This document shows positions 60,101 through 63,100 of a stretch of DNA of 64,000 bases, in pieces. Source of the DNA: Escherichia coli (lineage in GTDB: Bacteria; Pseudomonadota; Gammaproteobacteria; Enterobacterales; Enterobacteriaceae); the NCBI RefSeq assembly GCF_044324785.1, contig NZ_CP172128.1; one strand, 5' to 3'. Numbering within the stretch: the stretch's first letter is position 1; the number at the start of each line of letters is the position of its first letter. Position numbers: made by a program.

Positions 60101-63100
60101 TCATTTGCTTCACGCACGGTGGTGGTTACGCAAACTTCGGTAGTCACGCCACAAACAATAAGTGTCTTGATACCACGCTTTTGCAAAATCAGATGTAAGT
60201 CGGTTTGATAAAAAGCGCCTTTACCGGGTTTATCAATCACAGGTTCGCCTGTCACTGGATACAGTTCAGGAATGATGTCATGACCTGCCTCACCCCTGAC
60301 CAGAATGCGTCCCATCGGTCCTGGTTCACCAATAAAGGTTTTTCCGCCGCGCGTCAGTTTGGCTGATGGGCAGTCGCTTAAGTCTTCACGATGGCCTTCA
60401 CGGGTATGAATAACCATAATTCCTTTTTGACGTGCGGCTACCAGAACTTCTTTACATGGTGCGATAGCCGTGCGAACCAGTGAAACATCATTACCCAATG
60501 CTTCTCCAAACCCTCCTGCTTCGACAAAATCACGTTGCATGTCTATCATGATCAGTGCCGTTGTGCACGGATCAAAGGGTAATTCAAAGGGTTGAGCCTG
60601 AAAAATGGATATCGTCATGACAAATCTCCAGTATATATTGTTTACTGGTGACGAGTATTCAATATAAAGGTGACCCACAACAGAAAAAAAAGTTGTTTTA
60701 CAGGAGCGAATATTTTTGAGGTGTCTAAATGTTGTTATGAAAAATGTGATTTATATCAATCTATGACATTCATAAACAACTTTTTTCAAATGTTTATTTG
60801 TTTAATATTAAAAAAATTGTCGATATATTGTGATATTAATCATCCTATTTGGCAGGGATAGTGCTGATTTTTAACAAATACCCCTTACATCCGTCCTTCA
60901 ACGGGGATATAAAGCGCTGTTTTCCACCTAACCAGGTGTCTGCTGCTATTCAATGTATTGGCGGATGACGGATGCCGCCCGTTGAAGCAGGAACCCACGT
61001 CCTTAGGGCGTGGAGGATGTCAAATACCCGCCCTCATTGAGAGAGAAGCTACGAGATTTTCGCTAAGGGACACAGGTCATACGGGAGATGGCGGTTCCCA
61101 GCGTTTATCCTGCTCCGGCGGAGGCAGTGATGCGTCATCGTTGCTGTTCGCCGCGATATAATCGCGGTAGTAGCGTTCACTTCCTTCCCGGTGATGATCC
61201 ACATCCGGTCGTGTAATCCTGTAGTCTTCGTGACCGGTACGGCCTGTCACATTATGCCAGGCAACCATTTCAGCAAAGACCTGGTTAAATTGTTTGTCGT
61301 TTCCTTCTGGTTCAAAGCCCATTCTGGGATCACGCTCAAACAATACAGGTGCAATCAAATCCAGTTTATCTGCCAGCGCATTGCGGTCATGGTGATTACG
61401 GAAAACAACCCTGTCACCATAATCCGTACAGACAAACTCTCCCGTCCGACGGTCACGGAAACGAACACTCCCGTTCTTCTGCAAACGGGCCTCGAGATCA
61501 CCGGTATTACCGTATACCGGCGTTCCGCCCGGTTCACAAAGCACGACACAGCGGTCTGTTGTTGTTGTGCGTGACTTGTCTTTACGGCGATCGCGATAAT
61601 CCCAGCCTCTCAACTGCGATACAGCAGCCCTGTCTCCCTGAGCAGCCTGAATTTCGACCCACTGACGGTAAGAGGGTGGATACCACTTCCCGTCAGCAAT
61701 AAGTTTCTGTCGCTCATCCCTGATGTCTTCTTTCAGCCTGATCAACGCCTGCATTCGCTGAACTTCTGCAATGTGATAATGCAGCTTACGTAATGCCGGA
61801 TCATCGTACTGCGCACGAATGTGTGACTTCCGCAGACGGCATGCCTGATGAATTTCCCGACAACGTTCCCCATTACGCAGATCTGGTTTACGCCATTGTT
61901 CACGCCATGCCAGATAGCGGGCACGCAGGTCAGCACGGGCCTCAGCTCTGGCTTCACGTCGCTGCCGGCGCAGCATTGGGTCACGTTTACTGCTGACCCC
62001 GTACCTGTCACTGACAGCCAGCTCCGGGTTATAGCGACTTTCAGGTTGCACCCTGTCAAACAAATCTGCTGGGGCACTCACAAAAGGTCCGGCCTGTGGC
62101 TCTGCACGCCCCAGAGTCAGATCAGGATGAATGCTGCTGGCCTTCACCGGCGTTTGCTCATGATTAAAGGCATCAACGACAACAAGCCCGTGATGTTGTT
62201 TCTGTAGCATCAGTCCCTGTTGTGCAAACAGCTCATGACAACGCTGCCAGGTAAACTCACCCTGTGTGATCATTTCTTCAATCTGAGGGCTACAATGGCT
62301 GATGCTGTATCCCCACAGACTTTCTTTATCAGAAAACAGTTCGCGTTTGATAGCCCCCTGCGGCCCCGTGCCTGTACGCATACGGTGCCATTCTTTATCG
62401 GTCGCAGGACAGCTCTCCATACGACGACCACGGAAGCGTTCTGTTGGCGTAACCTGGCGGAAAATATCTGTTGGTACAGGCTGCCAGCCACCATCGAGTT
62501 GATTCACATTGTCGAGCGTCAGCAGTGACCATACGCTGTCAGCACGAACGGGAGTCTGGTTATGATATTTTTCGGATCCCGGTGAAAAAAGAGAGAAACA
62601 TGCAGATACCATGCATATCCATATGTTTGGCATCTGCATATGACAGGCATACGCATATCTCACACATCTGCATATCTATAACATATACATATGTATCACA
62701 TCTGCATATACTAAACATATATAAAAGCCGTCTTGCCAGGAGGAAGACATGAGAACCGTATCTATTTTCAAAAATGGCAATAACCGCGCGATCCGTCTGC
62801 CCCGCGATCTGGATTTTGAGGGGGTGAGTGAGCTGGAGATTGTACGGGAAGGGGACAGAATCATTCTGCGTCCCCTCCGCCCGAGCTGGAGCTCATTCCT
62901 GGAGCTAGAAAAGGCCGATCCGGGCTTTATGACGGAACGCGAGGACGTTGTCTGCGACGAAGGACGATTTAACCTGTGAACAAGATCTATATGCTCGACA
63001 CGAACATCTGCTCGTTCATCATGCGCGAGCAGCCTGAAGCAGTGCTTAAGAATCTGGAGCAGGCGGTGCTGCGCGGTCACCGTATAGTGGTCTCGGCCAT

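What the first reader, a model, noticed from the sequence alone, without database searches (positions are those of the whole stretch)
62599..62710. Iteron-like array of CATCTGCATAT repeats at 34-bp spacing upstream of vapBC
Three direct copies at 62631, 62665 and 62699, plus an inverted partial copy (TGCAGAT at 62601) and further GCATAT motifs, lie in the 150 bp between the 528-aa gene and vapB. They overlap the 5' end of the long minus-strand ORF. Regular 34-bp phasing resembles iterons or a partition-type centromere more than a typical palindromic vapBC operator.
Basis: seen in the sequence. Interest (0 to 1): 0.4.

Follow-up and report, generated by a model that had tools for sequence, protein, structure and literature searches.

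The report
Expanded tandem operator array of vapBC
The repeats are real, but they are not a replication or partition site: they are most likely an unusually long row of seven binding sites through which the plasmid's VapB-VapC toxin-antitoxin pair switches off its own promoter.

Summary
The three exact CATCTGCATAT copies at 62631, 62665 and 62699 exist. They are part of a larger lattice. Fourteen CATATG-like palindromic hexamers alternate at 6 and 11 bp from 62603 to 62721. This reads as seven abutting 17-bp sites (hexamer-N5-hexamer), or about 3.5 copies of a 34-bp two-site module. The predicted vapB promoter lies inside the last three sites.

The "528-aa gene" is a truncated nikB relaxase pseudogene that ends near 62564. 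Its overlap with the array comes from mechanical ORF extension. The array travels with vapBC, not with that ORF.

In 12 arrays that align in register, hexamer cores are 82-95% identical to the window and spacers only 30-57%. There are no indels. Upstream of vapB in 80 species, hexamer spacings fall only on the 6/11/17/... lattice.

A protein-blind DNA-pattern scan of metagenomes gave 123 arrays. vapB lies directly downstream of 116. The other seven are cut by a contig end or visibly disrupted.

Distant relatives carry one or two hexamer-N4-6-hexamer sites over −10 and −35, which is the classical VapBC operator layout.

Verdict: this is a tandemly expanded VapBC autoregulatory operator, not an iteron or centromere. 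I found no paper describing it. I rate it a new variant of a known kind, of moderate interest.

The parts
62603..62721 (+). Operator array. Seven abutting 17-bp sites (S1-S7), each hexamer-N5-hexamer, start at 62603, 62620, 62637, 62654, 62671, 62688 and 62705. Together they hold fourteen CATATG-like hexamers.
   Evidence: lattice. (cores conserved, spacers not). (same spacing lattice upstream of vapB in 80 species).
62631..62709 (+). Each spans the right hexamer of S2, S4 or S6 and most of the left hexamer of the next site.
62684..62712 (+). Predicted sigma-70 promoter of vapBC: −35 TATACA (62684-62689), 17-nt spacer, −10 TATACT (62707-62712). It is embedded in S5-S7.
   Evidence: In one search, 156 of 174 unique vapB upstream regions have an exact TATACT, and 142 of those have TATACA (at most one mismatch) 17 nt upstream. 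The distance to the ATG varies from 37 to 136 nt, so the array is fixed to the promoter rather than to the start codon.
62571..62598 (+). Conserved left-end element of the cassette: TTTTCGGATC, the right arm of an AGATCCG-N12-CGGATCT inverted repeat seen in other loci, followed by the GAAAAAAGAGAGAA box. It sits immediately upstream of S1. Its function is unknown.
   Evidence: Homology with IncF plasmids begins at 62561.
62749..62979 (+). vapB (vagC). This is a 76-aa AbrB/MazE/SpoVT-type antitoxin and the presumed array-binding protein.
   Evidence: Pfam PF04014, E = 3.6e-9. PDB relatives 6IFM_B, 3ZVK_E and 5L6M_A. N9, R16 and the loop residues are invariant in the family.
62976..63392 (+). 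vapC (vagD). This is a 138-aa PIN-domain toxin and the presumed co-repressor that bridges VapB dimers.
   Evidence: Pfam PF01850, E = 7.6e-15. PDB tRNA(fMet)-specific endonuclease VapC, E = 1e-28.
61077..62564 (-). nikB pseudogene (IncI1-type relaxase lacking its N-terminus). It is not part of the system but marks the junction where the vapBC cassette begins.
   Evidence: RefSeq annotation of the identical plasmid NZ_CP029742.1. Only a TraI_middle Pfam hit.

Best explanation
The array is the cis-acting autoregulatory operator of the vapBC (vagCD) toxin-antitoxin cassette, expanded by tandem duplication.

Inferred mechanism:
1. Each palindromic CATATG-like hexamer is read by the AbrB-type N-terminal domain of one VapB dimer.
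2. Two hexamers about one helical turn apart (hexamer-N5-hexamer, 17 bp) form one binding site for a VapB4C4 hetero-octamer, in which VapC dimers bridge two VapB dimers.
3. S7 covers the −10 box and the start-site region, and S5/S6 cover the −35 box, so occupancy blocks RNA polymerase.
4. S1-S4, upstream of the promoter, add cooperative binding sites that should tighten and sharpen repression.
5. Loss of VapB (for example by Lon) or an excess of VapC should release the complex, as in conditional cooperativity.

Shown here: the lattice, its selective conservation, its embedding of the promoter motifs, and its exclusive linkage to vapB. Inferred: which protein binds, one octamer per 17-bp site, and the regulatory consequence.
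For: (1) Lattice of 14 hexamers with strict 6/11 spacing, unique in the window.

(2) Phylogenetic footprint. In 12 arrays aligned in register without gaps, core columns have a 93% majority frequency (53 of 78 invariant) against 60% for spacers (2 of 30 invariant). Identity to the window is 82-95% in cores and 30-57% in spacers (Mann-Whitney p = 8e-13). Units upstream of the promoter are the best conserved.

(3) In 80 loci found through the VapB protein, one genome per species, hexamer density upstream of vapB is 23 per kb against 3.4-4.5 per kb in flanking controls. Pairwise spacings pile up at 6, 11, 17, 23, 28, 34, 40, 45, 51 and 57, while controls are flat.

(4) Reverse test. A DNA-only pattern for units 1-2 found 123 arrays in metagenomes. 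vapB lies 120-190 nt downstream of 116. Four are cut by contig ends. Three are disrupted cassettes, by an IS insertion or a vapB deletion.

(5) The promoter-like −35 and −10 lie inside the lattice. These hexamers are conserved while the distance to the ATG varies from 37 to 136 nt.

(6) Distant relatives have one or two hexamer-N4-6-hexamer sites over −10 and −35 (L062, L064, L079, L075). Where only two hexamers exist they are 11-12 bp apart.

(7) Precedent. Enteric VapBC binds two operators over −10 and −35, each taking one VapB4C4 octamer (PMC3378870, PMC3384007). C. crescentus VapB dimers read palindromic half-sites about 10 nt apart in adjacent major grooves (PMC5389673). R. felis VapB2 dimers read AT-rich pseudo-palindromes through N9, Q11, R16 and K19 (PMC3326315). 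The query aligns N9, N11, R16 and R19 at those positions, and N9, N11 and the loop residues are invariant in the family.

(8) The array is independent of the left flank, which is a nikB pseudogene here and a HEPN nuclease gene in IncF plasmids.
Against: - There are no binding data. That VapB rather than another factor binds the hexamers is inferred from linkage and analogy.
- The compared loci share ancestry, so the counts are not independent events. The core-versus-spacer contrast is the part that controls for this.
- Abutting hexamers lie only 6 bp centre to centre. R. felis VapB2 dimers contact about 10 bp, so full simultaneous occupancy of all seven sites may be sterically impossible.
- Four Photorhabdus loci (L067, L073, L076, L077) encode VapB with the same FKNGNNRA loop but have no hexamers upstream.
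- The promoter is a consensus prediction. No transcription start site has been mapped.
Confidence: 0.8

Rival explanations
1. The array is a set of iterons of a plasmid replication origin, bound by a Rep initiator. It would control initiation and copy number and exert incompatibility.
For: The form fits: direct repeats with a 17-bp period (within the usual iteron length range, from my own knowledge), AT-rich at 34% GC, on a plasmid.
Against: - No rep gene lies within ±8 kb, and the adjacent ORF is a relaxase pseudogene.
- No DnaA box lies within about 1.4 kb and no IHF site lies nearby.
- The array occurs with vapB on large, probably chromosomal contigs and on plasmids of several Inc types.
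- In the metagenome scan it was never found intact without vapB.
- It contains the vapB promoter motifs.
- Its units are palindromic hexamers, and the CATCTG hexamer is found inverted in L037.
Confidence: 0.02
2. The array is a partition centromere of the parC/parH type, bound by a centromere-binding protein that recruits a ParA or ParM motor.
For: Phased short repeats that overlap a promoter are typical of type Ib/II centromeres (own knowledge). Arrays of heptads bound by the omega repressor serve both regulation and partition in pSM19035 (PMC4803016).
Against: - No parA, parM or parR-like gene is adjacent here or in the related loci checked; the only gene constantly linked is vapBC.
- Short versions occur on large contigs that are probably chromosomal.
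- Copy number shrinks to one or two sites in relatives that keep only promoter coverage.
Confidence: 0.03
3. The hexamers are bound mainly by a different host or plasmid regulator, not by VapB. Alternatively, the upstream sites S1-S4 have a role other than repression, such as a titration sink for VapBC or plasmid-plasmid bridging by bivalent octamers.
For: - No binding data exist.
- S1-S4 lie upstream of −35, where repressor binding is not needed for occlusion, yet they are the best-conserved units.
- IncF plasmids carry two cassettes with the same cores, so sites in trans exist naturally.
Against: - The motif follows vapB across Enterobacterales and into Betaproteobacteria MAGs and Spongiibacter. 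This argues for a cis-encoded binder rather than a lineage-specific host factor.
- Simple cooperative repression is enough to explain extra sites.
Confidence: 0.12
4. The array is chance low-complexity sequence or a neutral remnant of tandem duplication without function.
For: The array clearly grew by duplication of 34-bp modules.
Against: - Hexamer density is 13 in 140 bp against a maximum of 4 elsewhere in the window.
- Cores are conserved and spacers randomised, without indels, across diverged cassettes.
Confidence: 0.02

Closest known systems
Enteric vapBC operators vapO1/vapO2 (Salmonella LT2 vapBC; Shigella pMYSH6000 vapBC/mvpAT)
   Same: An AbrB-type VapB and a PIN-domain VapC. Operator sites overlap −10 and −35. 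One VapB4C4 octamer binds per site, spanning two half-sites. Regulation is by conditional cooperativity (PMC3378870, PMC3384007). The minimal relatives of this family (L079, L075, L030) have exactly this two-site layout.
   Different: Here there are seven abutting sites (5-11 in other plasmid-type cassettes) in a strict 17-bp head-to-tail lattice reaching about 80 bp upstream of −35, instead of two separate inverted repeats. VapB is only distantly related to the solved ones (E about 1e-7). I did not compare the operator sequences.
C. crescentus VapBC1 and R. felis VapBC2 bound to DNA (PDB 5L6M, 3ZVK)
   Same: Each VapB dimer reads a short, internally palindromic half-site rich in pyrimidine-purine steps. 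The two half-sites are 10-14 bp apart and are bridged by the octamer (PMC5389673, PMC3326315). The 11-bp hexamer spacing and the conserved N9 and R16 fit this picture.
   Different: Those operators are single sites. No tandem array is described for them.
Omega repressor heptad arrays of pSM19035 (upstream of the epsilon-zeta TA and other genes)
   Same: Many short repeats lie in direct and inverted orientation. One dimer binds per repeat and the dimers polymerise cooperatively along the array to repress a TA promoter (PMC4803016).
   Different: Omega is a ribbon-helix-helix protein, a separate third component and a global regulator that also acts in partition. Its unit is 7 bp. Here the presumed binder is the antitoxin itself, and the unit is a 6-bp palindrome on a 17-bp lattice.
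Multi-site TA operators: hipBA (four operators) and the F-plasmid ccd operator (extended region bound by CcdA-CcdB chains). Both are cited from my own knowledge and were not checked here.
   Same: More than two repressor sites are spread over about 100 bp, with the toxin bridging antitoxin dimers.
   Different: The protein folds differ (HTH, RHH). Those sites are not arranged in a gapless tandem lattice.
Plasmid iterons and type Ib/II partition centromeres
   Same: A regular array of 17-bp direct repeats on a plasmid.
   Different: There is no cognate Rep or Par gene, no DnaA or IHF sites, the promoter is embedded, and the array is exclusively linked to vapB.

Membership tests
Type II TA autoregulatory operator (VapBC type) | Lies immediately upstream of the antitoxin gene and overlaps the promoter −35/−10 | tested here: met
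   Promoter-like −35 at 62684 and −10 at 62707 lie inside S5-S7. vapB ATG is at 62749. The same arrangement is conserved in 142 of 174 unique upstream regions.
Type II TA autoregulatory operator (VapBC type) | Built of (pseudo)palindromic half-sites about one helical turn apart, suited to dimeric antitoxin domains bridged by toxin | tested here: met
   The palindromic CATATG hexamers dominate. Spacing of 10-12 bp is the main adjacent spacing in minimal operators and the only one where just two hexamers exist. Precedents are in PMC5389673 and PMC3326315.
Type II TA autoregulatory operator (VapBC type) | Co-inherited with the cognate antitoxin, independent of flanking genes | tested here: met
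   vapB lies downstream of 116 of 123 protein-blind array hits. The other seven are truncated or disrupted. Left flanks differ between loci.
Type II TA autoregulatory operator (VapBC type) | Bound by the antitoxin or TA complex, with repression relieved at a high toxin:antitoxin ratio | not testable with these tools
   This needs EMSA, footprinting and reporter assays.
VapB antitoxin (AbrB/SpoVT/MazE DNA-binding type) | N-terminal swapped-hairpin domain, followed by a PIN-domain toxin gene with overlapping stop and start | tested here: met
   PF04014 and PF01850 hits. The vapB stop overlaps the vapC start (62976-62979). PDB VapB and VapC relatives were found.
Iterons of a theta-replicating plasmid origin | Tandem direct repeats of about 17-22 bp | tested here: met
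   17-bp period with 6-7 copies.
Iterons of a theta-replicating plasmid origin | Adjacent cognate rep gene | tested here: not met
   No rep gene lies within ±8 kb in the identical annotated plasmid. The neighbour is a nikB pseudogene.
Iterons of a theta-replicating plasmid origin | DnaA boxes or IHF site and an AT-rich unwinding element nearby | tested here: not met
   The nearest DnaA-box-like 9-mer (one mismatch) is at 61195. No IHF consensus lies in 62300-62900.
Partition centromere (parC/parH/parS-like) | Linked parA/parM and centromere-binding protein genes | tested here: not met
   None are annotated within ±8 kb or in the IncF context. The constant neighbour is vapBC only.
Partition centromere (parC/parH/parS-like) | Confers plasmid stabilisation and partition incompatibility in cis | not testable with these tools
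   This needs stability and incompatibility assays.

The most novel reading that the evidence does not exclude
The seven-site, gapless 17-bp lattice nucleates a higher-order VapBC nucleoprotein filament, with octamers winding around about 120 bp of DNA. On this reading the filament does more than occlude the promoter. It could act as a plasmid-borne sink that sets the free VapB:VapC ratio, so that the number of sites tunes addiction strength. It could also couple the two paralogous vapBC cassettes, or co-resident plasmids, by shared operators or DNA bridging, producing TA-mediated cross-talk or incompatibility.
Probability: 0.12. Interest if true: 0.65.

Novelty: new variant of a known kind. 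Interest (0 to 1): 0.38.

Why it matters
This vapBC (vagCD) cassette is among the commonest addiction modules on clinically important Enterobacterales plasmids. Its upstream region matched 4,324 PLSDB records, mostly Klebsiella, E. coli and Salmonella. I found no paper that analyses its operator.

Showing that the plasmid-type form carries 5-11 phased operator sites, where distant relatives carry 1-2, gives a concrete and testable system. The question it opens is how operator multiplicity shapes conditional cooperativity, repression tightness and post-segregational killing.

It also predicts cross-regulation between the paralogous cassettes that coexist on IncF plasmids. In practice it warns annotators against calling such arrays iterons or centromeres. 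It also matters for plasmid-curing strategies that express VapB from this region (bioRxiv 10.1101/2024.02.01.578384).

Tried and rejected
- Treating the 528-aa ORF as a partner gene. RefSeq marks it as an N-terminally truncated nikB pseudogene ending at the cassette junction, and Pfam shows only a TraI_middle domain.
- Iteron or origin reading. There is no rep gene, no DnaA box and no IHF site.
- Known RNA. Rfam at E ≤ 1 over 60500-64000 gave only a sub-threshold HgcC hit outside the array.
- The ORFs running through the array (62560-62718 minus strand, 62471-62752 plus strand) are repeat-derived reading frames with no support.
- Literature. Searches for vagC/vagD promoter work, for the literal repeat sequence and for vapBC tandem-repeat operators found no description. 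The only paper containing a close variant of this upstream sequence used it as a "promoter region" in a synthetic construct without analysis.
- One VapB dimer per 12-bp double hexamer, with octamers spanning 17 bp. This is less parsimonious, because minimal operators in distant relatives contain only single hexamers 10-12 bp apart.
- Covariation between VapB reading residues and hexamer sequence. This was uninformative. The family was retrieved through the invariant FKNGNNRA loop, so all members share it.
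Full report
**Observation**

The sequence between 62597 and 62725 holds the three exact CATCTGCATAT copies at 62631, 62665 and 62699. No other exact copy exists in the 64-kb window. The inverted ATGCAGAT at 62600 is also real (I11).

Tandem Repeats Finder reports periods of 17 and 34. The repeat finder returns a six-copy family with 17-bp spacing.

Thirteen hexamers within one mismatch of the palindrome CATATG start at 62614, 62620, 62631, 62637, 62648, 62654, 62665, 62671, 62682, 62688, 62699, 62705 and 62716. They alternate strictly between 6-bp and 11-bp steps. A fourteenth lattice position, 62603, carries CAGATA. The next-densest 140-bp stretch of the window has four such hexamers, and the background is 4.1 per kb.

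Written as hexamer-N5-hexamer, the region is seven abutting 17-bp sites, S1-S7, spanning 62603-62721.

**Context**

The downstream genes are an AbrB/MazE-type VapB (PF04014) and a PIN-domain VapC (PF01850). Their solved relatives are the tRNA(fMet)-cleaving VapBC complexes of Shigella, Salmonella, Rickettsia, Haemophilus and Caulobacter.

The "528-aa gene" is not a gene. In the identical plasmid NZ_CP029742.1 (IncK2/Z), RefSeq annotates it as nikB, an IncI1-type relaxase, "incomplete, missing N-terminus". Its start converts to window ~62564.

That point coincides with a homology break. Hundreds of IncF and other plasmids match the window from about 62561 onward (query positions 162-164 in the listed hits) but not to the left of it. 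In an IncF plasmid the left neighbour is a HEPN nuclease gene. The array therefore belongs to the vapBC cassette. Its overlap with the long ORF comes from mechanical ORF extension.

No rep or par gene lies within ±8 kb. No DnaA box lies within about 1.4 kb, and no IHF consensus is nearby. Rfam finds nothing in the array.

**Comparative evidence**

*Paralogue on the same plasmid.* The IncF plasmid in L002 carries a second vapBC copy, whose VapB has a different protein accession. Its upstream region has the same 17-bp lattice, with conserved cores and different spacers.

*Loci found through the protein.* A search of one genome per species with a VapB alignment gave 80 loci (63-88% identity) from Enterobacterales, Xenorhabdus, Photorhabdus, Providencia, Spongiibacter and Betaproteobacteria MAGs.
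- Upstream of vapB the hexamer density is 23 per kb, against 3.4-4.5 per kb in flanking controls.
- Pairwise spacings pile up at 6, 11, 17, 23, 28, 34, 40, 45, 51 and 57 bp. Controls are flat.

*Footprint.* Twelve arrays align to the window in register without a single indel.
- Core columns have a 93% majority frequency (53 of 78 invariant). Spacer columns have 60% (2 of 30 invariant).
- Identity to the window is 82-95% in cores and 30-57% in spacers (p = 8e-13).
- The units upstream of the promoter are the best conserved.

This contrast controls for shared ancestry and shows selection on both the hexamers and their phase.

*Reverse test.* A protein-blind DNA pattern for units 1-2 found 123 arrays in metagenome contigs. 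vapB lies 120-190 nt downstream of 116 of them. Four are cut by the contig end. Three are visibly disrupted cassettes, two by an IS insertion into the array and one by a vapB deletion. In this sample, no intact array occurred apart from vapBC.

**Promoter**

The only plus-strand promoter-like site in the intergenic region is −35 TATACA (62684), a 17-nt spacer, and −10 TATACT (62707). It lies inside S5-S7.

Of 174 unique vapB upstream regions, 156 have an exact TATACT, and 142 of those have TATACA (at most one mismatch) 17 nt upstream. The distance to the ATG varies from 37 to 136 nt. The lattice is thus fixed relative to the promoter, not to the coding sequence.

**Elementary unit and evolution**

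Relatives with few hexamers show what the basic site is.
- Betaproteobacterial loci have a single CATATG-N6-CATATG over −10 (L062, L064).
- Providencia and Photorhabdus have CATATG-N4-CATATG containing the −35 TTGACA, plus CATATA-N5-CATATG containing the −10 TATACT (L079, L075, L081).
- Pantoea and Symbiopectobacterium have two abutting 17-bp sites (L030, L046).

Among loci with two to four hexamers, the dominant adjacent spacing is 10-12 bp. It is the only spacing where just two hexamers exist. The 6-bp step appears only between neighbouring sites.

The plasmid-type cassettes have 5, 7 or 11 sites (L012 and L014; the window and L023; L037). L037's extra copies are 34-bp modules in which the CATCTG hexamer is inverted to CAGATG.

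The window array is therefore S1 plus three copies of the ancestral 34-bp two-site operator [CATATG-N5-CATCTG][CATATN-N5-CATAYN].

**Mechanism (inferred)**

Published work gives the template.
- Enteric VapBC binds two operators over −10 and −35. Each takes one VapB4C4 octamer, and excess VapC destabilises the complex (PMC3378870, PMC3384007).
- In C. crescentus, each VapB dimer reads an internally palindromic half-site. The two half-sites are about 10 nt apart in adjacent major grooves (PMC5389673).
- In R. felis, each dimer reads an AT-rich pseudo-palindrome through N9, Q11, R16 and K19 (PMC3326315). The window's VapB aligns N9, N11, R16 and R19 at those positions. N9, N11 and the surrounding loop are invariant in the family.

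By analogy, each CATATG-type hexamer is a VapB-dimer half-site. These hexamers consist entirely of deformable pyrimidine-purine steps. Each 17-bp site would then bind one octamer. S5-S7 would occlude the promoter, and S1-S4 would add cooperative sites.

Successive sites are rotated by about 223° at 10.5 bp per turn, so bound complexes would wind around the DNA. Abutting hexamers are only 6 bp apart. Whether all seven sites can be filled at once, or only alternate ones at 34-bp spacing, cannot be decided here.

**Rivals**

- Iteron origin and partition centromere are contradicted by the gene context, the missing origin motifs, the embedded promoter, the probable chromosomal occurrence and the exclusive linkage to vapB.
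- Neutral repeat is contradicted by the footprint.
- Another binder, or an additional role for S1-S4 such as titration or bridging, remains possible without experiments.

**Unexplained**

Four Photorhabdus loci encode VapB with the same reading loop but have no hexamers upstream.

**Novelty**

Searches for vagC/vagD promoter studies, for the literal repeat sequence, and for vapBC tandem-repeat operators found no description. One preprint used a close variant of this upstream region as a promoter without comment.

The kind of element, a TA operator, is well known. A gapless array of 5-11 sites for a VapBC system appears to be undescribed. The closest analogies are the omega heptad arrays (PMC4803016) and, from my own knowledge, the multi-site hipBA and ccd operators.

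I rate it a new variant of a known kind. Interest is moderate, raised somewhat because the upstream region matched more than 4,000 sequenced plasmids.

Noticed in passing
window 62561-62598; L006, L019, L023, L037 and others, about 30-60 nt upstream of the first operator site: A conserved inverted repeat AGATCCGR-N10-12-YCGGATCT, carrying two GATC sites, is followed by a GAAAAAGAGAGAA box. It sits just upstream of the first site in the long-array vapBC cassettes inspected. Sequence to its left differs between loci, so it marks the left end of the mobile cassette. The window and the IncF plasmids keep only the right arm. Its function is unknown; it could be a recombination site, an insulator or a regulator site.
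   Followed up: partly
window 61077-62564 (minus strand): The long ORF is a nikB (IncI1-type relaxase) pseudogene lacking its N-terminus. It is truncated exactly where the vapBC cassette begins, which suggests the cassette recombined into nikB.
   Followed up: yes
L002 (NZ_CP022166.1) 6189-6832 and 11052-11695: This IncF plasmid carries two paralogous vapBC cassettes 4.9 kb apart, flanking a 1264-aa hypothetical gene. Their operator cores are nearly identical and their spacers diverged. The second has about 50 extra bp between the array and the ATG. Cross-regulation between the two seems likely.
   Followed up: partly
L067, L073, L076, L077 (Photorhabdus), upstream of vapB: These VapB homologues keep the FKNGNNRA DNA-reading loop but have no CATATG hexamers upstream. 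A strong hairpin (for example GAGACACAGCG-N-CGCTGTGTCTC) precedes vapB instead. They may be co-transcribed with an upstream gene or regulated differently.
   Followed up: no
L037 985-1171: This is the largest array seen, with 11 sites. It was made by three extra 34-bp modules in which CATCTG is inverted to CAGATG. It shows that the array expands in two-site steps and that hexamer orientation is interchangeable.
   Followed up: partly
L163 and L173 (metagenome); L197: These are decayed cassettes. In L163 and L173 an IS element is inserted after the fourth unit of the array. In L197 a deletion fuses unit 2 of the array directly to vapC, leaving a toxin gene without vapB and without its promoter.
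   Followed up: partly
window 63397-63421: A GC-rich hairpin lies immediately after vapC and scores as a terminator on both strands. It probably ends the vapBC transcript.
   Followed up: no
window 60700-60860: A very AT-rich intergenic stretch (18-25% GC) lies between the cysteine hydrolase gene and the nikB remnant. The only Rfam hit nearby, at 60942-61033, is sub-threshold.
   Followed up: no
window 63437-63685 (minus strand): An 82-aa ORF lies just downstream of vapC. It has no Pfam match and is not annotated in the identical plasmid record.
   Followed up: no
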